A stretch of DNA of 62,569 nt, filler included, from Globobulimina sp. (lineage: Eukaryota), in the NCBI GenBank assembly GCA_003354225.1. It is 42 parts of 42 records of this genome, joined end to end, with 100 filler letters (N's around TTAATTAATTAA, not from the genome) between each part and the next. Parts side by side here need not be neighbours in the genome. Positions count along the whole stretch, not along the records: positions 55,215 to 56,605 come from PIVH01017435.1; 41 more parts are not named here. One strand, written 5' to 3'. The notes beneath the pieces were generated by a model that saw nothing but the letters and a program-made list of their open reading frames with translations, had not been told where the DNA came from and made no database searches. A program made the position numbers and the translations under genes. How positions within the stretch are numbered: position 1 is the stretch's first letter; the number at the start of each line of letters is the position of its first letter. Shown here piece by piece: positions 7,466 through 58,196 of the stretch.

Positions 7466-8858
7466 ATCATGATTTTGACACCATCTGCAGGCACAGCTGC
7501 ACTTGTAGAAGATCTGTTAGCACAACGATGGAACAATGCGGAAAAACGACCAAGATGCAAAACAGTGGATTCTGCTCAAGGTCAGGAATATCCATGCGTA
7601 ATCTTTCTCATGGTACGTTGTGCAAGTATGGATCATTTGGCAAAATTTTGGTCTATGTAGGTACGCGTGGATGGAAATACAGAACGTCCAGAATTCGAAC
7701 GACATTACCCCAATTACGATCATGAGATAATTCCTATTTACACCAAAGTTTGGTTCACCGGATTTTTACAAAGTCCAAATCGTATCAATGTGGCTACGAG
7801 CCGACATCAACAAGCATTGATTGTTCTTGGTGATCCTTTAACAGGTGATCTCAGTAAGCCTTTGTATCAACTCAGTCGATTGGCATTGGCAAATCATGCT
7901 TTGTTTGAAGACGGTGTCGCAGCATGGATCAGAATATCAGAACACAATCGTAACTTCTGGTACAACAAGGAACATCAAATGAAACCATTGATAAACATCC
8001 GAGCTGAATCAATAGCAAAATTGGGAGAACATCGACCATTGCCAATGTGTAAAACAGATGCACTTGAGAAATGGATGTACGAAGATTCCAAATTCCCTGA
8101 AGCAGACCGTGAAGAGATACAATTACCACAACAACGACAATTGAAATTGATTACAAGAGAATCAACGGCAGGTAATGTTTTGGGTCTCAACATGATTTTT
8201 TCAGACAACAATTACACCAATTGTGAAATACGTGGGTCATGTGATACTGATCCTGAAGCATCTGACCATTTCTATCGGGAAAACTTGTCAGCAGCCTATG
8301 ATGCTAATCCCAGAGACAGAGAAGGTGAAGAACAAGGTGGTGTATTACCAGATGACGTAGGTTATGTTGATGAAAGTGAGATGACAGTGTGGAAAGCAAA
8401 TCAGGTAATCACGGGTGGTCCATTCCTTCCAGTTGCTGAGACAGAATTGGCAACAAAAGCAATGATGTCGGAAGCAATACAAGCTGTTACAAGTCTGGTA
8501 GGAAGAGAGGTTATGGAAGCCACACTCAAGGAAAGAAAAGAGAAGGCTGGAACTAGCGGATTAGGCAAGGTAATGAACCAAATTCAAGCAGAACAAGTCA
8601 GGTCAGTTGCAATGGAAATCGATGAAGATGAACCAGTGGAGTCACCAAACATGGCCTATGATCCCACACAATGGTTGGAAACATACGATTTGGTTGCACC
8701 AAATTTGACATTGCCACAAACATTTGATGACGTGATGGCAACAGGTAGACATGTCCTACAAGTAAACTGGCATGGATTTACAGTAGAACAAATCCTTCAA
8801 TTGAAACTTCCCAAGTACATGGATGTACATCTCAAAAGTGATGCTGGAACGGAAGATC
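7466..8858 (+). pseudogene. Upf1/DNA2-like SF1 helicase C-terminal (AAA_12) domain with a long C-terminal extension; in-frame TAG at 7658-7660
   Basis: ILTP, TVDSAQGQE and NRINVATSR motifs. Collinear with 56149-56605, where this codon is TAT. Confidence 0.8.
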
Positions 8859-14930: not shown

Positions 14931-16323
14931 GCATTCAATTTCCTCCTCTTCCTATTCGGCGCTCCTTTAACTTTCCCTTTCCCTTTGCCTTTGCCATCAC
15001 TCTCCAATTTCCTTTTTTTCGTATTACCACTCTCATTCTTACCACTTTTAATGGTAACATTGCCGTCCATATCCACATCCTCCTCATCCTCATCATCGCT
15101 GATCGTCCACGCAACGTCCTCCTCCCCCTCGTCATCACTGTCCTTATCAAACAATGAACTCTTCTCTTGTTTCTCCGGCAATTCATACTCTTTATTCGCT
15201 AGATCTTCGCCTATGTTTTTCTCCAATTTCTGAAACAACGCATCATTCTCAGACTCATCCCCTTCCAAATCAGACAAAACATCCTCATCTCCATCATCCA
15301 CCAAATCATAGTCATTTAAGTTCGCCTCATCCTCATCATCACTCATAAACTCATCGAAATCGCCCAATGCCTCCAACTGTCCCCTCCGCTTATTACTTTT
15401 CAACCGTTTGCTTAATATCTTATCTGTTATCAATGATTTCGAGGCATCATCGCCAGTCTGCAACGATTTGCTATCCCGGATATTATGCTGTTCCTTATAC
15501 TCTGTCATAAATGTATTATAATACTCATCGCCCATCAGATCACCCAACATTTCCATTTCCTCGCTGTTGATACTTACTTTATCCATATACATCTCCTTCA
15601 ATTTGAGCTTAGCTTCATCGGTAATCTCGTCGGCGCGCAACTTCTTCCGCTTCGACTTGACATTGCCAGCCGAATCGTGCCCGAACAAATTGCCTAATTT
15701 CTCCATCATGGATTTCTCCGCTTGCTTTTTCCTCCATTTCGCCAGCTGTTGCAGGTGCCGCTTCTCTGCATATTCTGCGCAGGCTTGGCCCTCAGCCACG
15801 AGCTGTGTGGATATGCCAAATTCGATGAAGGTGGCGGGGTACACGGTGGCGGTGCGAGTGGTGCCCGTCCATTCCATCAAGACGTACGAATAGTTTTTGT
15901 CTTTTTGCTTGGGTTTGCCCAACCAATCCCGACGCACATTTTCTTCTTTGTCGCTCGCTTTGGCGGCTTCTTCGAAATGGAACCACCATTCCCGACCGCC
16001 TTGGAGGTATCGCCGCTCATTTTCATCTTCTTCCAAACCGAACTTTACTAAATATGTTTTTGTTGTGGTTTGTATGTAAGAACTTTATGGATTATGGCGC
16101 GAGGATGCTATGAAGAGATGAGATGCATACATTTTGCAATTAATTCTTCGCGTTTTTTGGCATTTAATGATTTGTCGTATTGTACGCGTTCTAATTTAGT
16201 TTGGAGGTCATCTTCGCGAATGGCTTTAATTTTCGATTTGGGGAATCGTGGACCTTTGGAGCCTACAAAATGACCGATATAGGCTCGATTGCAAGCCAAT
16301 GATTTCTTGAATAATGAGCATTT
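14931..16323 (-). CDS. Acidic nuclear protein, possibly TFIIF alpha subunit (RAP74/Tfg1)-like; partial with a probable intron
   Basis: SYVLM...VYPA.FIEF...EYAEKR pattern followed by a long Asp/Glu tract and basic NLS. Confidence 0.45.
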
Positions 16324-16423: not shown

Positions 16424-17668
16424 ATCGGCGACATTCGTCCGCAATAAATTAATATTATCGATGCAATTATACTTTTGCAGCTCGCCGGTGCCGTTTCTTA
16501 TGTTATTCGAACGATTCAATAATGAGCATCCCGCACAAAACCCGCCAACGTCGTTATTAATTCTCTTATATTTAAATATCAAATTTTTAACCGTTTTTGT
16601 ATAATTTTTGCAGGCGTTTTCATTGCACGGTTTGATGTGAAATTTATCATAAATATCGCTGTTATTTTGATGTTGTGCACAATTGTAATTATCTTTCATT
16701 CTCTTAAAATGTTTAATAAAACCACATAATGTCAACCATGGACCGCCCGTGCACTCATTACGTGGGCAAATCCATTCATATTTGACTTTATTCGCTGAAA
16801 TACCATTTGTATCAATGTTGCACGTACTGCACGTTACGTTGCAATGTATTAATTGATTTGTATCATAATCAGTTTGTATGTAATTCGTGCAATTTATTTT
16901 ATAACACTTTGCCGCAACTTTTTGATTTGGTTGCTCAATATTTTCAGACTCAAAGTTTTTATTTTCAGAGTCACAAACTTCGGAGTCGCAGACTTCAGGT
17001 TTGCGCACTATAATTTTGCCCGCGATTTTAAGCCGGCAAATTTTACAAATTAAGTCACAGTCTTTGTGCGGAATCTCGCTATTTTCTGTCAAGAAAGACA
17101 ACGAAAACCGACGTTTACATATATTGCATTTATATTTGTTTAATTGGTTGCCATTACAACGCTGATTGTTTACTGTATTATTATTTGTGTTATTTATTAT
17201 TATTTGTTTATTATTAACAATGTTTTTATTTTGTTTATTTTTATTTAAATCAACAATTAAATCAGAAATTAATACATCAGCCGATGAAGCACTTGAATCT
17301 GATTCATATGAATGTAAATCTAATGCTTTCTTTTTCTTTCTCGCTGTATAAATATCTCCAGTTACTTCAACATCGTTTTTTCTTTTTCTCTTCAATCCAC
17401 GGCTTGATTTACGATCTAATGTCAATATCGTATCTATATTTGTGCCGTCTTTATTGTTTTGTAATAAAATGTTACTAAAATCTATTTCATCCACTTTGTC
17501 ACGCTCAAATTGTATACATTTACTATTTAAGGGCGGTTTAATAGGACGCCGTCGATTTTTATTCTGGATCTCATCCTTTGTGTTTAATGTCTCTTCTTTT
17601 GATGGCGAAGTGCCTTTTTTTTTGTTTACGATTCTTATCATCAATAAATGGCTCAAACTTCGCGGCAC
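16424..17668 (-). CDS. Intronless Cys-rich, multi-zinc-finger hypothetical protein; 3' truncated
   Basis: CNIC..CKIC, CSTC, CPRNEC..FIKH and CAGC. Confidence 0.55.
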
Positions 17669-17979
17669 ATTTTTTGCGGAACAGAATTGTGGAGTTTTTG
17701 CTATGTTTTATGGAACAGGTTTTTGAATTGCGGAAACGCAAAGCGGATAGCTCCGCAAAATGCTTTTTCGAGTTAGTTTGACGAAGAAAATAAAATAAAT
17801 TAAATAAAACATGTTTNNNNNNNNNNNNNNNNNNNNNNNNNNNNNNNNNNNNNNNNNNNNTTAATTAATTAANNNNNNNNNNNNNNNNNNNNNNNNNNNN
17901 NNNNNNNNNNNNNNNNGTTACATATTATTATTATTATTCTGTACTGTATGCATTGCTTAATTATAAACAAAAAACAAAG

Positions 17980-22395: not shown

Positions 22396-22676
22396 TGCAT
22401 TGCGACATTTTGGATACACCCGAACATTTTTATGAAAACGATTTATTCATCAAAGGATATTTGCGAGTTCGAGAATATTTAAATATTGATAAAAGAATCG
22501 AAATTATAAACTCAAGATTCGATTTGTTACATGAATTATTTGAAATTGTCATGTCGCAGCAAGAGACATCCCACGCTTCGAAATTAGAATGGATTGTTAT
22601 ATGGTTAATTGTTGTGGAAATATTTTTAGGTCTCATTGAGCTCTTTACTCAATATGTAATTATAGGGCATGAGTAA
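22396..22676 (+). CDS. RMD1/RMND1 (DUF155) family, C-terminus
   Basis: LDTPE..YE, EYLNIDKRIEIINSR and KLEWIVIWLIVVEI. Confidence 0.9.
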
Positions 22677-22735
22677 TTTTTAAATTTTAAATATTTTTGC
22701 AACCTCTCACATCGAAGTTAATTGTCTATATAGTA

Positions 22736-23689
22736 TTAATATTGATGTCTGTTCAGATCTGATTGATTGATATCGATATATCTCTCATAACACTTTTTCA
22801 TCAAATCAAAGCCGGCCAGTGTTCCGGCACCAGATATATTTCTAAATATGTTTACAACGCATCCTTTATACAATGATTTGGGGCCTTCACTCTTTACAAT
22901 TTGTTTAAAACAATCAATACTTCCGTTATACTTAATTATTTCCGTACTTCTCATCATCATTCTTCTCCGTATCGTATCCATTGGGTACACAACAATTCCC
23001 GCAAATGTGGTAATAGCGAAACCCAACATAAATGACATAAAAAAATGTGATGATTTATCAATATCAGCAAACAGCATTGGTTTGCTTGTATCGTACACTC
23101 CAAAATAAATTCCGCGGTAAACCATTATGGTCCAACACGACATTATAAATCCTCGATAAAAGCCAACAAATCCATCACTTTTATATGTTTGTTTATAAAC
23201 ATCCCATAAACCGTTAAATTGTCTTTTTTGCTGCGTTGAATGTGAAATAATATCATTTGCTAATCGAGTGCGTGTATAATCCAATGAATAGACCATTGTT
23301 AAAGAAAGAACGCCGGCAAAACCACCGCTTAATGTGTTTTTAGACAGCTTCATAAATGATGAGTCATTGGGGGAAATATTAAAGTTCTGTTTTATTCGTT
23401 CTTTGAACATAAAATTAAGTGCCTGACTCGGTAAATATCGCAAACAATTCGCTAAGTTGCCTCTCCAAAACGACAACACTCCTTCTTCGAATAACACACG
23501 TTTTGTACAATCAAATGATGATTTATAAGCATGGGCTAATCGCTTTGATTTGATCATTTCATTTTGATTCTGTATCAATAATTTAATTCTCTCCACTGGA
23601 GCTGCTGCAGTCTTTGCACTAATCGCTGCAATACCGCTCAATACAAAGTTCTCCAACGCACTCAAATTCTGCTCGTTTCCGTTGGGCAT
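22736..23689 (-). CDS. ANT: Mitochondrial ADP/ATP carrier, complete and intronless
   Basis: KTAAAPVERIKLLIQNQ, FWRGNLANCLRY and the RRRMMM signature. Confidence 0.95.
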   Translation of the reverse strand: MPNGNEQNLSALENFVLSGIAAISAKTAAAPVERIKLLIQNQNEMIKSKRLAHAYKSSFDCTKRVLFEEGVLSFWRGNLANCLRYLPSQALNFMFKERIKQNFNISPNDSSFMKLSKNTLSGGFAGVLSLTMVYSLDYTRTRLANDIISHSTQQKRQFNGLWDVYKQTYKSDGFVGFYRGFIMSCWTIMVYRGIYFGVYDTSKPMLFADIDKSSHFFMSFMLGFAITTFAGIVVYPMDTIRRRMMMRSTEIIKYNGSIDCFKQIVKSEGPKSLYKGCVVNIFRNISGAGTLAGFDLMKKCYERYIDINQSDLNRHQY

Positions 23690-23887
23690 TTTCACGTTAA
23701 TAGGTCAAAAAGCTTAAATAAATCTTTTTGTTCTGAAATAAATCCGACAATTTAAAAGTGTTTGATGTCAAAATTCTATCACAAACANNNNNNNNNNNNN
23801 NNNNNNNNNNNNNNNNNNNNNNNNNNNNNNNTTAATTAATTAANNNNNNNNNNNNNNNNNNNNNNNNNNNNNNNNNNNNNNNNNNNN

Positions 23888-27913: not shown

Positions 27914-28056
27914 GATGATGTTGTATCACTTTTTTGTCGATCAAAAACTTAAGCTCTACTCAGTTGTATGTCAACAGACGTCTCTCAAGTCTGCTAAAAT
28001 CACCTGTAAATGCTATGTGCCGATTACAGTTCAATGCACCAAGTTCTTTCCATATG

Positions 28057-28263
28057 TCATGACATCCAATATATTATTTTTAGATCCTAGTCATGACATC
28101 CAATACATTATTTTTAGATCCTTGTCATGATGTCCAATATATTATTTTTAGATCCTAGTCATGATGTCCAACATATTATTTTTAGATCCTAGTCATGATG
28201 TCCAATATATTATTTCTAGATCCTAGTCATGATGTCCAATATATTATTTTTAGATCCTAGTCA
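28057..28263. repeat. 34-bp tandem repeat (TCATGAYRTCCAATATATTATTTTTAGATCCTAG), six or more copies
   Basis: Copies start at 28057, 28091, 28125, 28159, 28193 and 28227, with no spacers. Confidence 0.95.
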
Positions 28264-36211: not shown

Positions 36212-37316
36212 TATTTAATTTCTAGCCATAACTCAAAAACTCTTACTTATCGTTTTATATTGAAACGTTTTTATTTTTTCGGATTTAAAAGTTATATCTA
36301 TAGATTTACTCGATTTGGGATGGAAAAATGCAAAGATATTAATAATTAATTAATTAATTATAAAGTTATTTCATCATATTTCGATTAAACAAAACATGCA
36401 GGATCTTTTTGTTGTAAATTTTTGATAGCATTTGTTGTTGTTACTGTTTGATTATAATCACAGCAAAAATAACCAGTATGTGCTTCTGTTGTATCGTTTA
36501 CTGGGTGAGCCCATGCAAAATAATCAGGTTTCTTATTCTCAACATCTTTTTTTTATATTTTATTATGGATCATTACAAAATTGAAAATATAGCCCACAAA
36601 CCAGTGCTAGTATTAAAATTAACACATTCTTTAATATCCATATGACACGCTCCAACAACATAATTATTAAAAAATCCACAATTACACGTATTAGTATCTG
36701 TTGGTAATTCTTGAAACAATAAAAACACGGCATGACTCCCAGCGCCTTCTGAACTGTTATTACATAATTTATATTTTCAGCATGCATGGATCACATAACA
36801 TGCTGCATATATCACACAACTAATACCTGTCATAATGAGGTGTAGTCGGTCCGGTTGTTCCATTTGCAGAGGCTGTACCACTATGATATGTTATTTGTTA
36901 TTAAAATCATTACTCATTATAAAGTATAACAGAAAACATAACTAATATTTCCATTGCCAATCATAAAAGCCATAACAAACATGGATTTTAGTCCAACATT
37001 CACCAATCATATCATATTGATCTTTGCATTCATCACTGCCTACGTTTTGTTCAATATCTTTGAATTGTTGCTTTATTAAACGACTTGCTGATGTCGAATA
37101 TAATATCAGTGATAACGTACATAACAATAAGAGACACATTGTCAAATTACTAGTTGTCAGACACTTGATTGTTTTGTAAGTAAGTAAGTTTGACTGAACA
37201 TGATCAATTCAACTCNNNNNNNNNNNNNNNNNNNNNNNNNNNNNNNNNNNNNNNNNNNNTTAATTAATTAANNNNNNNNNNNNNNNNNNNNNNNNNNNNN
37301 NNNNNNNNNNNNNNNA

Positions 37317-38707
37317 TTACATACCGATCACAAGAATCTCCAGGAACTATTTAAGGCGGCTCGCGGCTTCAAAACAGGTAAGTTATACCGTTGGAGCGTT
37401 AGATTGCAGGAATTTGATTTCACTGCAAAATACATTCCCGGCTATGCCAATATTGTGGCAGACTACCTATCGCGTAATGGTTTGTTTGATGATAAAAATA
37501 TGTATAAATTACGTAATGATTTGACATTGAATACCTTTGATATATTTGCAATGTACACAAATGAATTATGCTCGCAAGTAATTGCAGGCACTGATAATAA
37601 TGACATGGTATTTACTGAGAATGAATTGGATCATCTTAATCAACGACGGCATACTGTTATAAATAAAATTAATTTGAGTCTCATGCATAATCTTCGTCCA
37701 TTTAAATCGCAAATTGACAGAAACATTTTGAATAAAACTGATTATAACGACTTTAATTTTCGTCACGAACGTAATACAAATACTAATAATCTTCAATACG
37801 ATAATACCGATTGCCATAATTGCCATGATTCAATGAATTTAGATGGCTCATTTGCAGCATGTAATTTGCATATTGATAATGCAATGGATGTTGACAATGA
37901 CTATAATGACGACTTACCCCTCATGGGGGTGGAAATATACTCTTTAGACTGTGTTGAGCGACGAGCCCATGGTCCGGAAGGACAGAAAGATAAAAGTGTG
38001 TGTAGTAAAGTAGAATTATCAGAAACAAAAACCTTTTCGCTAAACACACAAAACAAGAACAAAAATAATAAAAATACAAATAAAATCACACAAAAACAAG
38101 CAGCTTCATATAATAAAATAATTCAAAGTAAGCGTCGGCGATCTAAGCGTTTAATCGCCAAACAACCACACAATCTGCAACCAAATATAAATAACGCCAA
38201 ATTAATCCCTTTCCCTTCAATTCCAACCTTTTTAAATCATCAACAACGCGCGAATTATGAGCAAATGTTATCAAATACAAAAAAAATAAATAACGAAATT
38301 CTATCTTATAAACCAAATAATCCCTTTTTTAATATTGATAGTATCGATCCAATTCCTTCGGTAATCTTAGATCGATACTATGTCAATGACATAACAAATA
38401 AATTAATTGAATATAAACAAAGATCCGATACTTTCATCCATCCCATAATAGATCACTTAGAAACAGATAATACCAATTTATTAATAAACTTATCCGATGA
38501 TTATAAACGTAATTTTTTATTGGGCCGCTTTTCAATGAAAAACGGCATATTGCATATACTCCATAATAATAAACATAAAATCCTTATTCCTCCGTTTTTG
38601 CGTCGCTCCATTTTGCATAATAGCCATGATATAATACATAATGGCCAGAATAAAATGTATCAAATAATATCCAATAGATACTGGTGGCCAAAAATGAGAA
38701 ACCATAT
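37317..38707 (+). mobile_element. Ty3/Gypsy LTR retrotransposon pol: RNase H end, long insert, integrase zinc-binding start
   Basis: HTDHKNL, RW..RLQEFDF..KYIPG..N.VADYLSR and ILHNSHD..HNG...YWWPKM. Confidence 0.92.
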
Positions 38708-38807: not shown

Positions 38808-39036
38808 ATGGCACATTTGACGGCCATATGGCGGCTTTGACCGGTCAAATGGCACATTTAACGGCCATATGGCGGCTTTGACCGGTCAAATGGCAAATTT
38901 GACGGCCATATGGCGGCTTTGACCGGTCAAATGGCACATTTGACGGCCATATGGCGGCTTTGACCGGTCAAATGGCATATTTGACGGCCATATGGCGGCT
39001 TTGACCGGTCAAATGGCAAATGTGACGGCCCCTATG
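38808..39036. repeat. 41-bp GC-rich tandem repeat built from 20+21-bp subunits; five copies plus a partial
   Basis: ATGGCACATTTGACGGCCATATGGCGGCTTTGACCGGTCAA at 38808, 38849, 38890, 38931 and 38972. Confidence 0.95.
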
Positions 39037-39520
39037 GCAGACCAGGCACAGACGGAATTTTTGACAATGGAGGGTATTCTTTCGAACGGATTTTCTTAAG
39101 AAGAATATCTCCAAGTTGTCTATATAATGGTATGGGGGAATCCGAGTTTAACATTTTACGTCCTTTCTATAATACCTATGTTCAATAATTTAAATTATAA
39201 GGTTTACTTGTAAAGTTGTCAAGACAAATTAATGGTATTGGAGAATTAAATATTTTTTCAATCAATAATAAATTCATTTTATGTGACTGTAAGTTAGGCA
39301 AAATAGATACGTTACTTCAATGTTCATGGTATTTATAAAGGCCTAGACGTAGGCGGACGACAATTCTTGCACAGAGACGTATTAAAAAGGGGGGAAATCA
39401 GCTTCTGCGGCTCGCCTGAAGGGTGGGTATAATAAATATGGGCAATGATATCGCTTGTTTCTATCAATATATGAACATATAATATATACATGAAATTGGT
39501 GATTATGGAGGGTTACTTGA

Positions 39521-41691: not shown

Positions 41692-41810
41692 NNNNNNNNN
41701 NNNNNNNNNNNNNNNNNNNNNNNNNNNNNNNNNNNTTAATTAATTAANNNNNNNNNNNNNNNNNNNNNNNNNNNNNNNNNNNNNNNNNNNNATGACATAT
41801 GAAGCATTCT

Positions 41811-42413
41811 GGTCCCCATGCGCCAGCGTGGGAACCCATAACAAACTGTTACTGGTTACTGGTCTCTGGATGCTGGTTAAAAAGGTATTCTATCAGTTTT
41901 ATTAATAATGACAGAGCGAGGTGATTCCATTTACCAGCGACCAGAAACCAGTATACATTACTATCTGTTATCATTACCATATTACTTTATCAACAGAAAA
42001 CACGTCTGCATGAATAAATCATAACGGCTGGCTGGAACAATTCACTTGCAGGGTCTTCCCTTGTGGCAATGTTGTTGACTTAAGGATGGCTTTCATTCAT
42101 TAAATTTTCCCTTGTCGGGCTTTTGTTTTAACGCAAAGTACGCAGAGAACGCAAAGGCACGCAAAGGGATACTGTATTTCAAAAAAATATATTTTTCTTC
42201 TTTGCGATTCTCTGCGCTCTTTGCGGCTTTGCGTTTAAATTTATTCTGAATTTTCCAATGAATATTTCTTAAGTCAACAGCATTGTCCCTGGTGGTTGCC
42301 CGGGTCGTTCTGCCTTGACGATTGTTTATGCGAAATAATTCTCTCATCAGGATAACCACCAGGGCGAACACACGGGTTTGCAGAAAACGGGCAACCACAA
42401 GGGATGCCCCTAC
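41811..42413. repeat. Bacterial intergenic region with several REP-like and inverted short-repeat elements
   Basis: Hairpin 41811-41836; CTGG-7mer arms 41846-41878 and 41933-41953; CGCAAAG-9mer arms 42128-42167 and 42199-42238; GGGCAACCAC..GCCCCTAC 42388-42413. Confidence 0.8.
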
Positions 42414-42559
42414 ATCATTAAATTATGGAATGGTGAATATCACACCATTCCATCTGTTAGAAAAATTGTCGTAAATATTGAAAAATTCTGTAAAAAGAGA
42501 TATTGAATGGTTAAATATACCGTAAAATTATTCTTCATCAACAGGATTCAACTTTTCCC

Positions 42560-43171
42560 ATGAAAAAAGCCATTTACATTCTTACTGTCTTTGTTGCCCT
42601 TTTTCTGGGCTATCGACTCTTTTTTTCGTCACCCCATGTGACAAACTCCATTCCGGCAGGGGGAACCATTATATGTTTCGGGGACAGCCTGACATATGGG
42701 ATCGGTGCTGAGAATGGCATGGATTATCCGTCACAGCTTTCGAGAATGATTTCGCAGGAAATTATTAATGCCGGTATCCCGGGAGATACAACCGGGCAGG
42801 CGTTGGACAGGCTTGAAGAGGATGTTCTTTCAAATGACCCCCGGATTGTTCTGCTTTCATTAGGGGGCAATGATCTTAAAAACAAAGTCCCCAGAGACGT
42901 TGCATTTCAAAACCTGAAAACGATTATCGAGAAAATTCAATCTCAGGGAGCCCTGGTTGTCATCGGCGGGATTGATGTCCCATTATGGGGCAGAGGGTTT
43001 GGGAAAGAGTATGAACGACTGGCTAAAGAGACCGGTGCTGTTTTAATACCCAACATTTTCAAAGGCATCATGGGGCGTCGGAATCTCATGAGTGACCCTA
43101 TTCATCCCAATGGTGAAGGATATACCAAAATGGCCGAATTGTTTTATGATGCAATCAAACCATACCTGTGA
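42560..43171 (+). CDS. Bacterial GDSL/SGNH arylesterase (TesA-like)
   Basis: FGDSLT, NAGIPGDTT, LGGND and DPIHPN blocks; N-terminal anchor. Confidence 0.93.
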   Translation: MKKAIYILTVFVALFLGYRLFFSSPHVTNSIPAGGTIICFGDSLTYGIGAENGMDYPSQLSRMISQEIINAGIPGDTTGQALDRLEEDVLSNDPRIVLLSLGGNDLKNKVPRDVAFQNLKTIIEKIQSQGALVVIGGIDVPLWGRGFGKEYERLAKETGAVLIPNIFKGIMGRRNLMSDPIHPNGEGYTKMAELFYDAIKPYL

Positions 43172-43283
43172 AAATATAATGATNNNNNNNNNNNNNNNNN
43201 NNNNNNNNNNNNNNNNNNNNNNNNNNNTTAATTAATTAANNNNNNNNNNNNNNNNNNNNNNNNNNNNNNNNNNNNNNNNNNNN

Positions 43284-46267: not shown

Positions 46268-47659
46268 TATGCACTGAGCCGTCATTCTTCCGCCTATAAA
46301 CGACTGGGTTCATGCTTAACATTCCATTATATTTATAGAAATATTCGAGAGGATAAAGTATTGGTTTCCAGATTTATCCTGGATATTTTAACTAATTTAA
46401 TTGAATCAATCGGTGTCGCACAACATGATATATCTGGGATTGATACCATACAAGAAACAAGAAAATGTATTAAACATTACGGGGATATTATTGTTAACGA
46501 AAAACATGGATTTCATAAAATGTTAAATAAAATCGATAAACAGCGGAAAGGAGGAGATCATTGCAAAGATTTGTCTGCTTTTATTGAATGGTTATTTGAG
46601 AATTTAGGGAGAATTGAAGAGCCATTAAGACGAACTTGTATGTTATTGATAGAGTCTTTAGCCCCACTCTCAAGAACGATAAATAAAAGAAATAAAACAG
46701 TGGCTGGGAATGTAAGTAATTGGTTTGCTGAAATTATTGGACGAAGGAAATTGCAATATATTGTGTCTGTGTTTGAAGGTGGTCGATTATTTGATGGCTA
46801 TAATCGCAAATCGATACTACAGTCAACTCCGCCTTTACCGGGAAGTAAAGGCTACGCCAAGGTTGCAGGCAAATTGTCAAAAGTTGAGTGCTTACAAAAC
46901 TTCAAGCGATGGGCACAGGATTTATCAACATCGCTGGATGCTTATTATTGGATGATAAAAAATAAAATTATTGATAATAACAACGAAAAGGAAGTCACTA
47001 AATTATTCAAGCAAAAAGGTTTTAATTCCAATTTATTTGAGGCATGTAAACATTTCTTAACATCATTAAAATTATTAAATAAAGTATCTTTTGTTGGCGC
47101 TGTTACACTGAAAAACGATTTAAATAAATTACGATGTGATACTACCATTCGATTCTACAGATTTATCGGTTGCATGTTAAGAAATGATTTAGTAAAAGTT
47201 ATTGAAGCTTTAATGAAATATCAGTTGTTTTATCAGTTATTGTTTGAAAGTTTAGTGGTTCCCGATGTTGTTGGATTTGTTAAGGTTAATCCAATTCGGG
47301 TTAAGGAGTTACAAAATCAATCACTGAAAGAAGTAATTAGCGCTATTTGTAATTATTCAAAAAATGAAAAATTCAAAATATTTGTTATTAAAATATGCAA
47401 CCAATATATGACTGGTAAAGTATCCTCACATTCTGATATCGATGCTTCTGCTGCAACAATGACACGCCATTTATCCATTAAATCAGAGGATTGGACATCA
47501 AATAAATTCTTTCAATTTCCAGGTAAAGCATTGATGTTTCTTCGTGGATTGGACATCTTGGCGAGGATAAGGGCGAAAACAAACAACTTATTACAATTGG
47601 CATTGGATGCGGATTCAAATAATAAACAATGTCATATAGTGTCCTCAAATATGGCTGAC
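46268..47659 (+). CDS. PRKDC: DNA-dependent protein kinase catalytic subunit, internal HEAT region
   Basis: HSSAYKRLGSCLTFHYIYRNIREDKVLVSRF matches DNA-PKcs [31 protein letters not shown]. Confidence 0.85.
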
Positions 47660-47896
47660 NNNNNNNNNNNNNNNNNNNNNNNNNNNNNNNNNNNNNNNNN
47701 NNNTTAATTAATTAANNNNNNNNNNNNNNNNNNNNNNNNNNNNNNNNNNNNNNNNNNNNGGCAGTGCTGTGAATGCCTGCCAGCGGTGTTGATTCTGATC
47801 TTGATCAGTTTGTGGTTTGCAAAATAACTTTAAAGCACTTTGAGGTCTTACATGGCAGTCATCACAGACTTCATCGTTATGTTAAAAATATAATTT

Positions 47897-48165
47897 ATGA
47901 TTGCTCCAGTTATTACATTTTTTGAGAAATTAATTACTGAATTTACATGGCAACGATTAGTGTTTATTCTCATTATCACTTTCATGGCAGGCGGTAGTTT
48001 TATTATCTACGAAACATATACTGGCAATTTTCGTCTTAACAAGATAGAGCGTTCTGCAAAGCTTCTTAATGATTTGGAAGATCTTTCTCAGAAAACTCGC
48101 GATTCTGGGAATGCAACAACAAGCAAAATCCTCAAAGGCCTTACTGATGATTTGGATTTTTTCCT
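47897..48165 (+). CDS. Prokaryotic-style membrane protein N-terminus, truncated at a probable chimeric junction
   Basis: One TM helix followed by a helical segment; sequence character changes abruptly near 48165. Confidence 0.45.
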
Positions 48166-48300
48166 ACTATTAGTGGACTTTTTCAGGGACAAATAACGCA
48201 CAAAATGACATGTCACTTACCCCCGGGTTAAAATTCCCAGTTGTGAATTCTTTAGGCACAAATAACGCACAAAATACGCACTCCGGGCAGCACCACGGAC

Positions 48301-48525
48301 ACACGAGGCCAAGCACATACAATAAAACACGCCGCTGATTTAATTTGCACAACAACTAACAGTTTATCTGAGATTGAAATCTCAGGGCCGGATGCTACTT
48401 TGGGCGAGCGCGGCGAATTAGATTGTCGTCGTGCAAGAAAAGCATTTGATTTTTGTCCGCAAACAGATTTAAAAGAAGGACTGGAGTTATATTATGAGTG
48501 GATCAAACAGTTTTATACCATTTAA
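48301..48525 (+). CDS. NAD-dependent epimerase/dehydratase C-terminus (not in the ORF track)
   Basis: TRGQAHTIKHAADLI...RGELDCRRARKAFDFCPQTDLKEGLELYYEWI; overlaps the downstream start. Confidence 0.75.
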   Translation, partial: TRGQAHTIKHAADLICTTTNSLSEIEISGPDATLGERGELDCRRARKAFDFCPQTDLKEGLELYYEWIKQFYTI

Positions 48526-49150
48526 CGGTGTAATTCGACAGAACGAAAGCCTCCGCTGGGAGCTTCAAGATGTAATATCAGAAGTAATGCTGTCCGGCGA
48601 TTTGCTTAACGGTTATAAAAAAGCAATGTTTGAAGATCAGGTTGCTTGTCGTGTTGGCCGTGAATATGCCATATGTGTCAACAGTGGCACAAACGCCATC
48701 CACTATATATTTGATTGGCTATCTACACAAAACCTCGAACCACAAATATCAGATTGGAAAACAACACCATCAATCGCAGTACCAAACTATTCTTTCCGCA
48801 CAACAGACAATGTTATAGCTAACCGCGGACAGCCCAGATATATCGACGTTGATTCGCAAAGCGGGTTAATGGACTTAAAAAGCGAAACGTTTCAAGGTAA
48901 GCTGGACATCATTATGTATGTTAATCTGTTTGGGAACATGCTAAACTATGAGGAATTAGTTACTGTTACAAACTTGTTTAGCGATAACAAAGACGCTGTA
49001 ATAATCGAAGATGCTGCACAAAGCTTTGGAGCAAAATGGAAGGGACAACATAGCGGAAGCTTTGGTGACTTTAGCATATTCAGCTTTGATCCTACAAAAA
49101 ACTTCGGTAGCTCTACTGGTGGAGGAGGTATGATACTAACTGATAACCAC
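48494..49150 (+). CDS. DegT/DnrJ/EryC1/StrS PLP-dependent sugar aminotransferase; truncated
   Basis: VNSGTNAI, IEDAAQSFG and FSFDPTKN; GGAG upstream of the start. Confidence 0.93.
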
Positions 49151-54279: not shown

Positions 54280-55114
54280 TTATCGTGGCACAGAAAACAC
54301 TTTGTAGCTTAATTGTGATTGATCCATTAACACATATGAAGTGTCTGATGGTTTATCAGTGCTTTCAAGCACAGGCGAACCGCATTCAGCATCATAACAT
54401 ACAGCTTCTTGATCCAATAACGTAGCATTGCCACCATTGCCATCTACAAATGCTTCCTCTGCCGAACTTTTTGGATGTTTGCATGAGTTTTTCATTTTGA
54501 GTAATAATGCAATGAATGATATGATAATGACACCAATGATAACTGTGACGAATGGGCCTTGGGATAGTCTCTGGGGTTCATGTGATACTAACATTGGATT
54601 ATACTCTTCCAGCATAACATCATAATCCGATCGCATATAATTGTGATTGCTTGGTATTTCCACGGTGAATACGTCAATATCCGCCATTGTATCACCAATA
54701 TTTTCAATACGAATATCATATTCATAATCACCATCTGCATAGACTGCATTTGGTGCCGTTATATCCATGATTTGTGATATTTGAGATGCAATACGTTTTG
54801 GAACACCAGCAATGGACATCATTTGTTGAATAATATCGGATTCGACTCCAACTGGTTCAAATAATTTTTTTGCCGTTGAATCTGTCATAATCGCTTCCAT
54901 TTGTTCCTCAATGGGGTGTGAAGCCAGTGAAGGATGGGGCGCCCTTTGTATATTAATGGTGTGTGGATGCGGTTCTGTAATGGCAGTGGGTTCAGTGATG
55001 GCAATGGGGTCTGTGATGGCAATGGGGTCTGTGATGGCAATGGGGTCTGTGATGGCAATGGGTTCTGTGATGGCAATGGGTTCAGTGATGGCAATGGGTT
55101 CAGTGATGGCAATG
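54280..55114 (-). CDS. Type I membrane protein with (IAITE/DP)n stalk repeats; 5' truncated
   Basis: The 54280-54900 frame stays open to the contig end through 18-bp repeats; TM FVTVIIGVIIISFIALLL. Confidence 0.75.
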
Positions 55115-55215
55115 NNNNNNNNNNNNNNNNNNNNNNNNNNNNNNNNNNNNNNNNNNNNTTAATTAATTAANNNNNNNNNNNNNNNNNNNNNNNNNNNNNN
55201 NNNNNNNNNNNNNNT

Positions 55216-56605
55216 GATGCTTGGGGACTGCCACTACCTTATGCACGAGTAGAACGTATGTCAATTAATTATTACATGTTCAAAGATCTTGGAGGTGCAC
55301 CGGAAGTGATGACAACCCGAGCAGCGTACTATAACGTTTGGGCACAAGTTGAAGAAATTACCGATCTTTTGGCTGTAGAGAATGATTCTACTTCTCGGTT
55401 CAATTTGAGACAGAAACAGAAGAAGTTAGTAGTCAAAGCCAAAGAAGATTTGACTACATTGTATGAAGAAGTTGTGAAGTCATGTAAATTCAACCTTATC
55501 ATCATGACATTCAAACAAGGTGAAGCCTATCTGGGTAAGTTCAAAGTGGATCTGCACATTACTACATTATTAGCAGATGAAGCATCATATGCTACTGACA
55601 CCGACACATTCATTGCCTGCCGATTACTAGCTGATAAAGTCGCTCGACAAGTAGTGCTATGTGGTGATCCGATGCAATTGGATCCCGTAGTACAAGCTCA
55701 TGCTGCATCTGGACGATTACAAGCAATCAGTACACAAGCAAGATTACAAGCACCCGGTTCCATTTTGAAAAAGGTGATCTTTCCATATACTGTCGAATCT
55801 GCTATTGACAAATTACAAGTTCCAGAGGCTAACATCAAGCCTACAATTTTGACACAGATGTTGACCAAGACATTCAGACAATCAGCCTTGATGGGTAATT
55901 TTACATCAGAAGCATTTTACAAAGGTAAGGTTAAAACGGGTTTGACAGAAGAACAACAGAAAGTTAAAGATTGGGCTGGTTGGCGTTTACCTTGGGGCAC
56001 TGAAGGTTTTTCTCTGGCTTACTTGGCAGTACGTGGAACCGAGGAAAGTATTGATGGTGAAAGTCGAATCAATATGAATCAAATCCGACAAAGTGTTGTA
56101 TTGGTTTGGTACATCGGAGAAGTAATGAAAGCCTTTGAATTGGACCATATTATGATTTTGACACCATATGCAGGTACAGCAGCAATAGTTGAAGACATGT
56201 TAGCACAGAGATGGAATAATGCAGATAAACGACCTCGGTGTAAAACAGTAGATTCTGCTCAAGGTCAAGAATATCCATGTGTCATTCTTTTGACAGTCCG
56301 CTGTGCTAGTATGGATCATTTGGCAAAGTTTTGGTCTATGTATGCACGAACAGATCAAGGTACGACACTTAATTCTCATTACCCAAATTATGAACATTCA
56401 GCCATACAACTTTACACCAAGGTTTGGTTTACCGGTTTCTTGCAAAGTCCTAATCGTATCAATGTAGCAACGAGTCGACACCAACAAGCATTGATTATAC
56501 TCGGTGATCCCTTGACAGGTGATCTCAGTAGACCTTTGTATTTACTTAGTCGTTTTGCATTGGCCAATCATACTTTGTTTGAAAATGGTGTTGCCGCTTG
56601 GATCA
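55216..56605 (+). CDS. Upf1/DNA2-like SF1 helicase (AAA_11/AAA_12), intronless; open at both ends
   Basis: LADEAS, LCGDPMQLDP, LTKTFRQ, ILTPY, TVDSAQGQE and NRINVATSR. Confidence 0.9.
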
Positions 56606-56705: not shown

Positions 56706-58092
56706 GAGAAAAACACCAACAAAGATGATGCAAACTGATGATTTTCCACTGCCAGATACGCCAACATCTCTCACTTCATCATATAACGCAGACGTATCAT
56801 ATAACCAAGACACACAGAAAAACATGGTTGAGAGCACAAATAAAATTAAATATAACCCATTAGATGACTCCATAGAATCGTTTGTTTCGTATCGGGTATC
56901 TCCTACTCAGCATAATAAAAATAATAAGAGCATTTTTGTAGATTTTGCAGACATTGACGGAATGATTGAGAAAAAGATGAGTGAAAATCAACACGAAAAT
57001 GATACTCATTTAATCCAAAAATGGTTAGAAGACAGAAAAAGATGGGATGTCATTCAACGAAAATATGAACAAAAACTGCTGAAACAAGAATTAAAATATC
57101 AAAATGAAATAAAAAATCTGACTCAGCACATTGAATCCAAGCAAAATAAGCAAATTATTAAAATGGACGCTGACTATCACGAATTGTCTGAAAATAATCG
57201 TATATTAAATACAAAATACCAAGATTTGCAAGAATCATTTGATGAAAAACAAAATGAGATTCGAAGTTTAAAAGAAAAATTAGATGAAAAAGGTGAAATT
57301 ATTAATATATTACAGACAGAAAATAAAAATCCCGGAATTCGAAATGAAGAAATTTCAGAATATAAGCTCGAAAATGAGAGACTAAAACATTTGGAACTAA
57401 CCTCCCAAAATATGGTAGAAAGATTATTAAAAAGATTGGAGCAACAAATTCATTCTTCTGAAAAGATACAAAAACAATTAAATTTAAAAGAAGAAGAACA
57501 CGAAAAAGAAATTATGAAATTGGAACAAATCAATGCCAAATTACAAAAACATTTAACTGTTTTCAATGCGCCGCAGCCACCATTCTCGCGATCGAGGTGT
57601 TCCTCTCAGTCATCTTTGTTTACATTAAACACTGTTATGACAATGGACAAACCCAAAGACTTAAACTTAGATTCAAAGCAAAGACAATCTGTGCATATAG
57701 ATACTGAGAAAGATAATGAATTTGCAAAACAAAGCGAATTAAATGAGAGATTAATAGCAGATATTAATCGATTTGAGATCATGGTGAATGACGAGAAAGA
57801 TATGATAAATAATTTACAAATAACAATAGGCCAACAAAGAAATAGTATATCCATTTTAGAAAAATCAAATTCCGACATTTCATCGGAATTAATCGAACAA
57901 CGCGCATTAAGACAAGAGTTTGAAAAAGAAGTTGAAGATTTACAATTTGATAATAAACAATTAAGAAAGAAATTAATTTCCTTCAAAAAACATATGGAAG
58001 AAACAGTGGATGGCAGATTTGAACATTGTCCGCGTCCCGCTTCTGCCAACAATGCAATACGGCGACCGGGCGAAGTCATTGGCAATTTTTGA
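56706..58092 (+). CDS. Long coiled-coil protein, partial
   Basis: E/K/Q/L-rich heptad pattern over about 300 aa. Confidence 0.7.
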
Positions 58093-58196
58093 ATTTNNNN
58101 NNNNNNNNNNNNNNNNNNNNNNNNNNNNNNNNNNNNNNNNTTAATTAATTAANNNNNNNNNNNNNNNNNNNNNNNNNNNNNNNNNNNNNNNNNNNN

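What the first reader, a model, noticed from the sequence alone, without database searches (positions are those of the whole stretch)
55216..56605. Multi-copy, intronless Upf1/DNA2-like helicase family: candidate undescribed helicase-encoding mobile or viral element
Seen: the same SF1 helicase region occurs on two unrelated contigs (56149-56605 and 7466 to about 7930). The copies are nearly identical in protein but differ at many third codon positions (ggc/ggt, gat/gac, caa/cag, aga/cgg). Both contigs are coding end to end, lack introns and are less AT-rich than the host genes. They share oddities absent from cellular Upf1/Sen1: TFRQ for QYRM, NVATSRH for NVAxTRA, SAQG for xFQG, and a ~35-aa insert between motifs V and VI. 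The other copy continues >300 aa past the helicase. Established: Helitrons carry Pif1-type rather than Upf1-type helicases, while Upf1-like SF1 helicases occur in nidoviruses and in a few eukaryotic immune proteins such as ZNFX1. Inference: hitting one ~450-bp segment twice among 42 size-sorted contigs implies high copy number, as expected for a selfish element or a massive expansion.
Basis: partly seen in the sequence, partly recalled or inferred. Interest (0 to 1): 0.8.

Follow-up and report, generated by a model that had tools for sequence, protein, structure and literature searches.

The report
Multi-copy divergent Upf1-like helicase family
Two short contigs carry old but still protein-constrained copies of an unusual Upf1-type helicase that exists in many variants in this foraminifer-like genome; whether it is an expanded host gene family or the helicase of an unknown mobile element or virus cannot be settled without the flanking DNA.

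Summary
Contig 55215-56605 (copy A, 463 codons, open end to end) and contig 7466-8858 (copy B, 464 codons, one in-frame TAG) overlap over about 456 nt. They are 79.5% identical in DNA and 82% in protein; 60 of 93 differences are at third codon positions, and dN/dS is about 0.10 with dS about 1.1.

The protein is a catalytically intact-looking Upf1-like SF1B helicase (Pfam AAA_11/AAA_12; fold closest to Senataxin and Upf1).

It is multi-copy. One public run gave 94 contig pieces at 80% identity or more, with up to 11 distinct contigs at one site. Their best-supported differences are mostly synonymous, and the length changes are multiples of three.

It is not an orthologue of UPF1, MOV10 or SMUBP2. 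Only one of 1.84 billion representative proteins matches below E 1e-30.

No mobile-element or viral hallmark was found, but both contigs are coding to their ends, so flanks could not be examined. GC3 and codon usage are host-like.

My reading: an expanded lineage-specific cellular helicase family (about 0.5), against a helicase gene of an uncharacterised mobile element or endogenous virus (about 0.3).

The parts
55216..56604 (+). Copy A: open frame of 463 codons, cut at both contig ends. It encodes the helicase from after motif Ia to just past motif VI.
   Evidence: ORF listing. Pfam AAA_12 2.2e-23 and AAA_11 8.2e-07. PDB sequence hits to Upf1/NAM7 at 4.7e-14. AlphaFold model mean pLDDT 81.9. 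Foldseek top hits Senataxin and Upf1, TMq 0.54-0.57.
55300..55482 (+). Two long predicted helices (residues 29-54 and 58-89), read as the stalk or 1C-like accessory element of Upf1-like helicases.
   Evidence: Secondary structure of the model, block pLDDT 74-97. Calling it 'stalk/1C' is my inference from the known Upf1 architecture.
55567..55587 (+). Motif II region LLADEAS. The DE is kept; the usual Q after DEAx is Y here.
   Evidence: Alignment to Upf1, where LLADEASYA faces VLIDESTQA. Coordinates.
55660..55686 (+). Motif III, CGDPMQLDP (GDxxQL).
   Evidence: Alignment to Upf1. Coordinates.
55870..55881 (+). Motif IV variant TFRQ, in place of Upf1 QYRM.
   Evidence: Alignment to Upf1. Coordinates.
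56245..56271 (+). Motif V variant TVDSAQGQE (SAQG where Upf1 has AFQG).
   Evidence: Alignment to Upf1. Q349, G350 and E352 are invariant in the family alignment. Coordinates.
56308..56430 (+). Family-specific insert of about 37-41 aa between motifs V and VI. It contains the conserved YPxY[DE]H..I core and varies in length between copies.
   Evidence: Query 365-405 faces 4 residues of Upf1. The alignment gap recurs in nearly all of 51 relatives. Y389, P390, H394 and I397 are invariant in A, B, P0003 and P0011. There is a 3-codon indel between A and B. One contig has 75 letters in place of 66 here.
56455..56481 (+). Motif VI variant RINVATSRH; the arginine of the usual TRA is kept.
   Evidence: Alignment to Upf1. 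R414, N416, V417, A418, S420, R421 and H422 are invariant in the family alignment.
7466..8857 (+). Copy B: 464 codons in one frame, cut at both contig ends. It covers motif V to motif VI and then a 309-codon C-terminal tail.
   Evidence: ORF listing. Pfam AAA_12 1.1e-11. 82% identity to A.
7658..7660 (+). Single in-frame TAG in copy B, where A has TAT. It could be a nonsense mutation, a sequencing error or read-through; this is unresolved.
   Evidence: It is not an intron: the frames on both sides are the same, and none of the GT..AG spans I counted by eye around it has a length that is a multiple of three.
7931..7990 (+). Short conserved extension after the helicase core (RISEHNRNFWYNKEHQMKPL).
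   Evidence: Aligned with P0003 up to about residue 178 of B and visible in P0011. A loose end of a contig at 56601 continues copy A-like sequence into the same tail (table 7).
7991..8857 (+). Acid-rich C-terminal tail with no recognisable domain. It is not conserved with P0003.
   Evidence: No Pfam hit at E up to 5. No usable hit in the protein atlas. No significant alignment to the P0003 tail. Open frame in 0 of 20000 shuffles.

Best explanation
Copies A and B are two members of a large, old, lineage-restricted family of Upf1-like superfamily-1B helicases, encoded in a foraminifer-like eukaryotic genome.

Shown:
- Each copy keeps the residues needed for an ATP-driven translocase: DE of motif II, GDxxQL, the R of motif IV, QGxE of motif V and the R of motif VI. 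The Walker A motif is seen in relative P0004.
- Each copy also has a family-specific insert of about 37 aa on the second RecA domain, a short conserved C-terminal extension, and then a fast-evolving acidic tail.
- The copies diverged long ago (dS about 1) but have stayed under strong purifying selection and in frame.

Inferred: they are most likely separately maintained cellular paralogues, that is a lineage-specific gene-family expansion. By analogy with other expanded or fast-evolving Upf1-like helicases (MOV10/Armitage/SDE3, ZNFX1), the most plausible role is RNA or nucleic-acid surveillance and silencing. The variable insert and tail would then serve as partner or target surfaces.
For: - Helicase identity and fold.
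- Intact motifs. Walker A (GPPGTGKS) is in P0004, which is 69% identical to A residues 1-65.
- Old, constrained copies: dN 0.109, dS 1.08, codon-position differences 20/13/60 over 151 codons.
- Many further variants in one run: 94 pieces laid (8 at 99% or more, 12 at 95-99%, 14 at 90-95%, 60 under 90%), with 10 and 11 distinct contigs carrying the other letter at sites 55247 and 56502.
- Variants are protein-constrained: of the 40 variant sites printed (262 more were not shown), 28 are at third positions, 27 are synonymous, 13 are not, and none makes a stop.
- Frame is preserved: the three joints skip or replace 198, 201 and 66-for-75 letters, all multiples of three, and the only single-base indels come in compensating pairs 3-5 nt apart.
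- Divergence is skewed to old copies that are nonetheless intact. Copies decaying neutrally at about 20% divergence would not look like this (my inference).
- Host-like composition: GC3 is 0.31 and 0.32 against 0.21-0.38 for most ORFs. Codon-usage correlation with pooled host ORFs is 0.63 and 0.68, against 0.57-0.89 for host ORFs left out one at a time and -0.14 to 0.41 for contigs that look foreign.
- Family members occur in another assembly (P0003, P0004, from NCBI contigs) and in a metagenome (P0011).
- No mobile or viral domain and no close viral relative.
Against: - No flanking DNA could be seen. Both contigs are coding to their ends, so introns elsewhere in the gene, neighbouring genes, synteny, termini and target-site duplications are all unknown.
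- Drawing the same 456-nt segment twice in 42 contigs argues for a copy number in the tens to hundreds. That is high for an ordinary gene family.
- dN/dS well below 1 among intact copies is also what repeated insertions from a diverse, actively replicating element or virus would give.
- Codon-usage correlation (0.63-0.68) is at the low end of the host range, and a retroelement pol fragment in the same window scores 0.72. Composition therefore cannot tell a host gene from a resident element.
- Copy B carries a premature stop.
- No control gene was laid on the run, so a genome-wide excess of variants (polyploidy, or several strains in the sample) is not excluded.
- The functional analogy to MOV10 or ZNFX1 is untested. 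In the tree the family does not group with MOV10.
Confidence: 0.5

Rival explanations
1. The helicase is one gene of an uncharacterised mobile element or endogenous (possibly large DNA) virus that has inserted many times. Several lineages have been active over a long period, and the helicase serves the element's own replication or transposition.
For: - Multi-copy, with a continuum of divergence from over 99% to under 80% identity.
- The same segment was sampled twice among 42 contigs, and no other contig pair is related.
- The sequence is an orphan: only 1 of 1,835,955,588 representatives is below E 1e-30 and 18 are below 1e-10. It lies outside the UPF1, MOV10 and SMUBP2 clades on a long stem.
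- It has a long, fast-evolving acidic tail with no known domain.
- One copy has a premature stop.
- The best viral fold match is a giant-virus SDE3-like helicase, TMq 0.52.
- Purifying selection between copies is expected if each insertion came from a replicating lineage.
Against: - No transposase, RT, Rep, polymerase or capsid domain was found in any sequence seen.
- IMG/VR, phage and metagenome scans gave only generic SF1B helicases at 27% identity or less.
- Cellular helicases fit the fold better than nidovirus or alpha-like viral ones (TMq 0.54-0.57 against 0.36-0.44). Pfam Viral_helicase1 scores 18 bits, below its 21-bit cut-off.
- Most variants are old (60 of 94 pieces under 90%) yet show no net frameshifts or stops in what was printed. 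That is unusual for dead insertions.
- GC3 is host-like.
Confidence: 0.3
2. The many variants are not paralogues of one genome. They would be alleles or orthologues from several strains, nuclei or related species (or a co-sampled different eukaryote) in a mixed sample, so the true copy number per genome would be low.
For: - The assembly is visibly mixed. Several contigs have non-host codon usage (r -0.14 to 0.41) and bacterial-type domains such as DegT and GDSL.
- No single-copy control was laid on the run, so the background level of variants is unknown.
Against: - A and B sit in one assembly at dS about 1.08, far beyond allelic divergence.
- 10-11 distinct contigs at single sites, spread from over 99% to under 90% identity, would need many co-sampled species.
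- None of the other 40 contigs in the window has a diverged twin.
- A and B have similar codon usage, and it is host-like.
Confidence: 0.1
3. The copies are decaying pseudogenes or an assembly artefact with no function.
For: - One in-frame stop in copy B.
- Both contigs are fragments.
Against: - dN/dS is about 0.10.
- 27 of the 40 printed variant sites are synonymous.
- Length changes preserve the frame.
- Frames of 463 and 464 codons are open in an AT-rich sequence; 0 of 20000 shuffles of the tail stay open.
- All catalytic motifs are kept.
- The structural model is confident.
Confidence: 0.03

Closest known systems
UPF1/NAM7 (nonsense-mediated decay helicase) and the Upf1-like SF1B group (Pfam AAA_11 + AAA_12, DNA2/NAM7 type)
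   Same: - Best sequence match in the PDB: single sequence 4.7e-14, family profile 9.9e-23.
- Same two-RecA fold with helical accessory elements, Foldseek TMq 0.54-0.57.
- Motifs II, III, V and VI are recognisable.
   Different: - Only about 20-30% identity.
- TFRQ for QYRM, SAQG for AFQG, TSRH for LTRA, Y for Q after motif II, and an insert of about 37 aa between motifs V and VI.
- It lies outside the starred UPF1 clade.
- The CH zinc domain could not be checked because the N-terminus is not in the contig.
- It is multi-copy, whereas UPF1 is normally a single-copy gene (general knowledge, not tested here).
MOV10 / MOV10L1 / Armitage / SDE3 (RNA-silencing and retroelement-restricting helicases)
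   Same: - 19 of the 50 best full-length hits scanned carry the MOV-10 beta-barrel domain.
- E-values to them are as good as to UPF1.
- The best viral fold match is annotated SDE3-like.
- A family with a surveillance or defence role is the functional analogy I favour (inference).
   Different: - The family falls outside the MOV10 clade, which is starred at 99.
- The N-terminal MOV10 domains cannot be checked.
- The V-VI insert is absent from these hits.
Senataxin/Sen1, IGHMBP2/SMUBP2, Aquarius, ZNFX1, DNA2
   Same: - Same fold: Senataxin is the top Foldseek hit at 7.8e-19, ZNFX1 has TMq 0.51, and DNA2 and Aquarius are also listed.
- Profile hits range from 1.2e-14 down to 7.8e-06.
   Different: - They are weaker than UPF1 by sequence.
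- None of their accessory domains is seen.
- Sequences of these families were not in my tree, except for two SMUBP2-type hits.
Viral SF1 helicases (nidovirus nsp13/ZBD helicase, alpha-like Viral_helicase1) and Helitron Pif1-type helicases
   Same: SF1 RecA-RecA core. Nidovirus and closterovirus helicases are found by fold, and SARS-CoV-2 nsp13 is in the PDB list.
   Different: - Lower structural fit (TMq 0.36-0.44).
- Pfam Viral_helicase1 is below its cut-off, 18 against 21 bits.
- No Pif1 or Rep signal was found.
- That Helitrons use Pif1-type helicases is general knowledge, not tested here.
P0003, P0004, P0011 (unnamed predicted proteins) and, more loosely, P0043, P0001 and P0002
   Same: - P0003 (43% identity) and P0011 (31%) share the insert core YPxY[DE]H, NVA[TI]SRH and the WVRY..WY extension.
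- P0004 (69% over 65 aa) supplies the Walker A end.
- P0043 has VDASQGSE and NVMTSRH.
- P0001 and P0002 have VDSAQGKE and NVAVSRQQ in tandemly repeated units.
   Different: - All of them are fragments or unnamed, and their genomic context could not be fetched.
- P0043, P0001 and P0002 lack the insert and are only distantly related.

Membership tests
Upf1-like SF1B helicases (Pfam AAA_11/AAA_12, DNA2/NAM7 type) | Significant match to the family's sequence models | tested here: met
   AAA_12 83.3 bits and AAA_11 29.5 bits, both above the 27-bit cut-off. The profile against PDB Upf1 gives 9.9e-23.
Upf1-like SF1B helicases (Pfam AAA_11/AAA_12, DNA2/NAM7 type) | Catalytic motifs II, III, V and VI with their key residues | tested here: met
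   DE, GDxxQL, QGxE and the motif VI arginine are present and aligned to Upf1. They are invariant in the family alignment where it is covered.
Upf1-like SF1B helicases (Pfam AAA_11/AAA_12, DNA2/NAM7 type) | Walker A (motif I) | tested here: inconclusive
   Copy A starts after motif Ia, so motif I is not in the window. The relative P0004 has GPPGTGKS upstream of the part that is 69% identical to A.
Upf1-like SF1B helicases (Pfam AAA_11/AAA_12, DNA2/NAM7 type) | Two RecA-like domains with Upf1-type accessory helices (fold) | tested here: met
   Model pLDDT 81.9. Foldseek probability 1.00 and TMq 0.54-0.57 to Upf1 and Senataxin.
UPF1 orthologue (NMD factor) | Placement inside the UPF1 clade | tested here: not met
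   The UPF1-labelled rows form a clade starred at 98 that excludes the family. win_A + P0003 (99*) sit on a stem of 1.38.
UPF1 orthologue (NMD factor) | N-terminal CH zinc-knuckle domain (PF09416) | not testable with these tools
   The N-terminus lies outside the contig, and no assembly is held.
MOV10/Armitage/SDE3 | Placement inside the MOV10 clade | tested here: not met
   The MOV10 clade (24 rows, 99*) excludes the family.
MOV10/Armitage/SDE3 | MOV-10 beta-barrel and helical N-terminal domains | not testable with these tools
   The N-terminus is absent from the contig.
Helitron/Helentron | HUH Rep domain fused to a Pif1-type helicase | tested here: not met
   No Rep or PIF1 Pfam match in A, B, P0003, P0004 or P0011. 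The helicase is Upf1-type. The N-terminal part of the protein remains unseen.
Viral SF1 helicase (alpha-like or nidovirus) | Match to Viral_helicase1 above cut-off, or closest fold among viral helicases | tested here: not met
   PF01443 scores 18 bits against a 21-bit cut-off. Nidovirus helicases reach TMq 0.36-0.44 against 0.54-0.57 for cellular Upf1-like helicases.
Transposable element or endogenous virus (generic) | High copy number of related sequences in one genome | tested here: met
   Two copies in 42 contigs. Up to 11 distinct contigs at one site and 94 pieces in run X1. No single-copy control was run.
Transposable element or endogenous virus (generic) | Element-specific genes (transposase, RT, integrase, Rep, polymerase, capsid) linked to the helicase | tested here: inconclusive
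   None is present in the 2.8 kb seen or in the three relatives. No flank is available.
Transposable element or endogenous virus (generic) | Defined termini, target-site duplications, insertion polymorphism | not testable with these tools
   Both contigs are coding to both ends and no assembly is held.

The most novel reading that the evidence does not exclude
The helicase is the signature gene of a so far undescribed class of eukaryotic selfish DNA in foraminifera. This would be a mobile element or recurrently endogenised virus built around a Upf1-type rather than Pif1-type SF1B helicase, with many co-existing lineages. Each insertion would be recent enough to remain intact, and the rest of the element would lie beyond the contig ends.
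Probability: 0.25. Interest if true: 0.8.

Novelty: new variant of a known kind. Interest (0 to 1): 0.42.

Why it matters
Upf1-like helicases are usually single-copy or low-copy housekeeping or surveillance enzymes. Here the family has ten or more diverged, selection-maintained copies, its own insert and tail, and almost no relatives in public protein space.

If the copies are host genes, this points to a lineage-specific nucleic-acid surveillance or defence system in a very poorly studied eukaryotic group. If they belong to an element, it would be a new helicase-based mobile element or virus.

The family also gives a concrete marker (the motif V-VI insert and the NVATSRH motif) for mining foraminiferal and other rhizarian genomes.

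Tried and rejected
- Whole-genome search: no genome is held for this window.
- Word-indexed protein search at near length found nothing. At longer lengths it found only P0001 and P0002, distant tandem-unit helicases.
- Phage records (tblastn) and IMG/VR with the single sequence gave no match.
- IMG/VR with the family alignment gave 4 loci at 22-26% identity, two of them giant-virus MAGs. JGI metagenome contigs gave 79 loci at 27% identity or less. All are generic SF1B helicases and none has the family features, so I did not use them further.
- Protein atlas: no usable hit for B's tail, and only generic DNA2/NAM7-type clusters for A.
- Pfam at E up to 5 on B's tail and on A's first 110 residues found nothing.
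- Sequencing runs: no RNA holder was listed, so nothing can be said on expression.
- Runs X2 and X3, from the same sample as X1, gave no laid contig. The tool warns that this is no proof of absence, and I could not lay a host control, so I draw nothing from it.
- Bins 55310-55403 had no cover in X1. I draw no conclusion from that either.
- The summed word depth was not used as a copy number, as the tool instructs.
- An intron as the explanation for the TAG in copy B is rejected. The frame is the same on both sides, and no GT..AG span I counted around it is a multiple of three (by eye).
- An alternative genetic code is rejected. Most contigs have long frames under the standard code, and allowing TAG lengthens only a few.
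- Literature: four full-text searches (listings and abstracts only, no paper read) returned nothing on a multi-copy Upf1-like helicase in foraminifera or on a Upf1-type helicase as a transposon gene. This is a weak negative.
Full report
**What the window is.** The window is 42 contigs of 1391-1393 nt, joined by runs of N around a ttaattaattaa spacer. No whole assembly is held for it. Everything below therefore rests on these contigs, public protein and contig collections, and one public sequencing run.

**The observation.**
- Copy A (55216-56604, + strand) is a single open frame of 463 codons that runs off both contig ends.
- Copy B (7466-8857, + strand) is a single frame of 464 codons. It is broken only by a TAG at 7658-7660, where A has TAT.
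- A 56149-56604 aligns with B 7466-7930. Protein identity is 82% over 155 residues (E 8e-93), with one 3-residue indel.
- Over 151 aligned codons the DNA identity is 79.5%, with 20, 13 and 60 differences at codon positions 1, 2 and 3.
- The Nei-Gojobori estimates are dN 0.109 and dS 1.08, a ratio of 0.10.
- In an all-against-all comparison of the 42 contigs, this is the only strong pair.
In the HMMER alignment to yeast Upf1, TFRQ faces QYRM, VDSAQGQE faces VDAFQGRE and RINVATSRH faces RLNVGLTRA.
- Residues 365-405 of A face only four residues of Upf1, so the insert is about 37 aa.
- The same alignment break, at roughly 364-406, recurs in nearly all of the 51 relatives I compared.
- B continues for 309 codons past the helicase. 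None of 20000 shuffles of that stretch stays open.

**What the protein is.**
- Pfam gives AAA_12 (2.2e-23) and AAA_11 (8.2e-07), the two halves of the DNA2/NAM7 or Upf1-like SF1B helicases.
- Against solved structures, the single sequence hits Upf1/NAM7 best (4.7e-14).
- A four-member family profile gives Upf1 at 9.9e-23, Sen1 at 1.2e-14, SMUBP2 at 5.3e-13, Aquarius at 1.4e-11, ZNFX1 at 8.1e-11 and DNA2 at 7.8e-06.
- An AlphaFold model of A, built on a 34-row alignment, has mean pLDDT 81.9.
- Foldseek puts Senataxin and Upf1 first (TMq 0.54-0.57). ZNFX1 scores 0.51 and SARS-CoV-2 nsp13 scores 0.38.
- Among predicted viral structures, the best match is a giant-virus protein annotated as SDE3-like helicase (TMq 0.52). 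Nidovirus and alpha-like helicases reach 0.36-0.44.
- The catalytic residues of motifs II, III, V and VI are kept.
- Motif I is not in the window. The relative P0004 is 69% identical to A's first 65 residues and carries GPPGTGKS upstream.
- This looks like a working 5'-3' SF1B translocase. That is an inference from the motifs and fold, not a test.

**How isolated the family is.**
- An exhaustive HMMER search of 1,835,955,588 representative proteins gave 892 hits at E up to 0.001, 18 at up to 1e-10 and one at up to 1e-30.
- The single strong hit is P0003 (357 aa, 43% identity). It shares the insert core YPxY[DE]H, the motif NVATSRH and a short extension WVRY..WY after the helicase.
- P0011 (31% identity, from a metagenome) shares these features more loosely.
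- P0003 and P0004 come from short NCBI contigs, without names.
- I scanned 50 of the 103 listed hits of 600 aa or more (147 hits considered). Of these 50, 19 carry the MOV-10 beta-barrel, 3 carry UPF1-specific domains, 2 carry the SMUBP2 1B domain, and 26 carry only generic helicase domains.
- I built a quick maximum-likelihood tree of 52 rows: A, P0003, P0011 and 49 of those 50 hits. P0041 was left out as a double helicase, and copy B as too short.
- In that tree A + P0003 are joined at 99* on a stem of 1.38. They group loosely with the long branches P0011 and P0043 (84), and they lie outside the starred MOV10 (99), UPF1 (98) and SMUBP2 (99) clades.
- Named Sen1, Aquarius, ZNFX1, HELZ and DNA2 sequences could not be fetched and are not in the tree.

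**Copy number.**
- One public run (X1) holds 55% of copy A's sampled words.
- At 80% identity or more, 94 of its contig pieces lie on the 1389 nt: 8 at 99% or more, 12 at 95-99%, 14 at 90-95% and 60 under 90%.
- At single sites, 10 contigs (55247) and 11 contigs (56502) carry a letter different from A.
- The loose ends printed in table 7 of that call read as more diverged homologous sequence. One of them continues A-like sequence into the tail seen in B.
- Of the 40 variant sites printed (262 more were not shown), 28 are at third codon positions, 27 are synonymous, 13 are not, and none creates a stop.
- The three joints skip or replace 198, 201 and 66-for-75 letters, all multiples of three. 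The only single-base indels come in compensating pairs a few bases apart.
- Together these show at least about ten distinct, mostly old, frame-preserving variants.
- Drawing the same 456-nt segment twice in 42 contigs suggests tens to hundreds of family contigs in the assembly. This is my rough inference, because the assembly size is unknown.
- No single-copy control could be laid.

**Whose gene it is.**
- The ADP/ATP carrier on contig 22396-23787 is 66-73% identical to proteins of the foraminifera Bolivina argentea and Nonionella stella, and about 58% identical to animal carriers.
- Other contigs carry DNA-PKcs, a kinase, a Na/Ca exchanger and a retroelement integrase domain.
- GC3 of A and B (0.31 and 0.32) is like that of these genes (0.21-0.38). 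The higher total G+C comes from codon positions 1 and 2 and from being fully coding.
- Codon-usage correlation with pooled host ORFs is 0.63 for A and 0.68 for B. Host ORFs left out one at a time give 0.57-0.89.
- Four contigs that look foreign give -0.14 to 0.41: 1494-2886, 14931-16323, the GDSL contig and the DegT contig.
- The retroelement pol fragment gives 0.72.
- The helicases therefore look resident in the foraminifer-like genome. Composition cannot separate a host gene from a resident element.
- Lack of introns is not distinctive either, since the DNA-PKcs fragment is also open end to end.

**Mobile or viral?**
- I found no element-type domain in A, in B's tail or in P0003, P0004 and P0011.
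- There is no close relative in phage records, IMG/VR or JGI metagenome contigs. The best there are generic SF1B helicases at 27% identity or less.
- B's tail has no atlas hit. It is conserved with P0003 for only about 24 residues past the helicase.
- Both contigs are coding to their ends. Termini, target-site duplications and neighbouring genes are simply unseen.

**Weighing the readings.**
- Copies at about 20% divergence that still have open frames, dN/dS about 0.1 and in-frame indels have not been drifting as dead insertions.
- Two readings fit this. Either each copy is a maintained gene, or each is a recent insertion from one of many long-lived active lineages.
- The divergence spectrum is skewed to old variants, and GC3 is host-like. 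I favour a lineage-specific expansion of a cellular helicase (about 0.5) over a helicase of an unknown element or endogenous virus (about 0.3).
- The mixed-sample explanation gets about 0.1, and pseudogenes or artefact about 0.03.
- A surveillance or silencing role is an analogy to MOV10/Armitage/SDE3 and ZNFX1, not a result.

**Novelty.** This is a new, strongly divergent subfamily of a known helicase kind, with an unusual copy number. Four full-text literature searches returned nothing on such a family (listings and abstracts only, no paper read), which is a weak negative.

Noticed in passing
1494-2886, 14931-16323, 41792-43183, 47760-49150: These contigs have higher GC3 (0.38-0.54) and codon usage unlike the foraminifer-like contigs (r -0.14 to 0.41). 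Two carry bacterial-type domains, GDSL lipase and DegT/DnrJ aminotransferase. The assembly probably mixes organisms, or else contains horizontally acquired genes.
   Followed up: partly
37316-38707: This frame of 463 codons is open end to end and ends in an integrase zinc-binding (H2C2) domain. It is a fragment of an LTR-retroelement pol gene with host-like codon usage.
   Followed up: partly
46268-47659: This is a fragment of the DNA-PK catalytic subunit (CC1/2 region, 4.3e-34), 464 codons open end to end. It shows that long intron-free coding stretches are normal for cellular genes in this assembly.
   Followed up: partly
22739-23704 (- strand): An apparently complete, intron-free ADP/ATP carrier gene. 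Its closest relatives are from the foraminifera Bolivina argentea and Nonionella stella (66-73% identity). This is the only evidence used here for the host lineage.
   Followed up: yes
54971-55114: An 18-nt unit (GGTTCTGTGATGGCAATG) is repeated 8 times at 94% identity, up to the contig end. It lies inside the 277-codon frame on the minus strand (54283-55113), so it would encode a hexapeptide repeat.
   Followed up: no
38808-39038 and 28056-28263: Two tandem arrays sit at contig ends: a 41-nt unit in 5.6 copies at 95%, and a 34-nt unit in 6.1 copies at 94%. They are probably where the assembly broke.
   Followed up: no
16424-17816 and 56706-58096: Two further contigs are almost entirely one open frame (428 and 461 codons). 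They have host-like codon usage (r 0.81 and 0.87) and no Pfam family at E up to 1e-5, so they are orphan coding sequences.
   Followed up: no
P0001 and P0002 (proteins): These long unnamed proteins (2294 and 1875 aa) are built of two or more near-identical tandem units. Each unit holds a helicase with VDSAQGKE and NVAVSRQQ, the same kind of motif V and VI variants as here. They could be read-through of a tandem multi-copy helicase array in another organism.
   Followed up: no
P0006 (protein): This Upf1-like helicase has a WW domain (1.2e-09) inserted between motifs V and VI, the same position as this family's insert. That loop seems to tolerate insertions.
   Followed up: no
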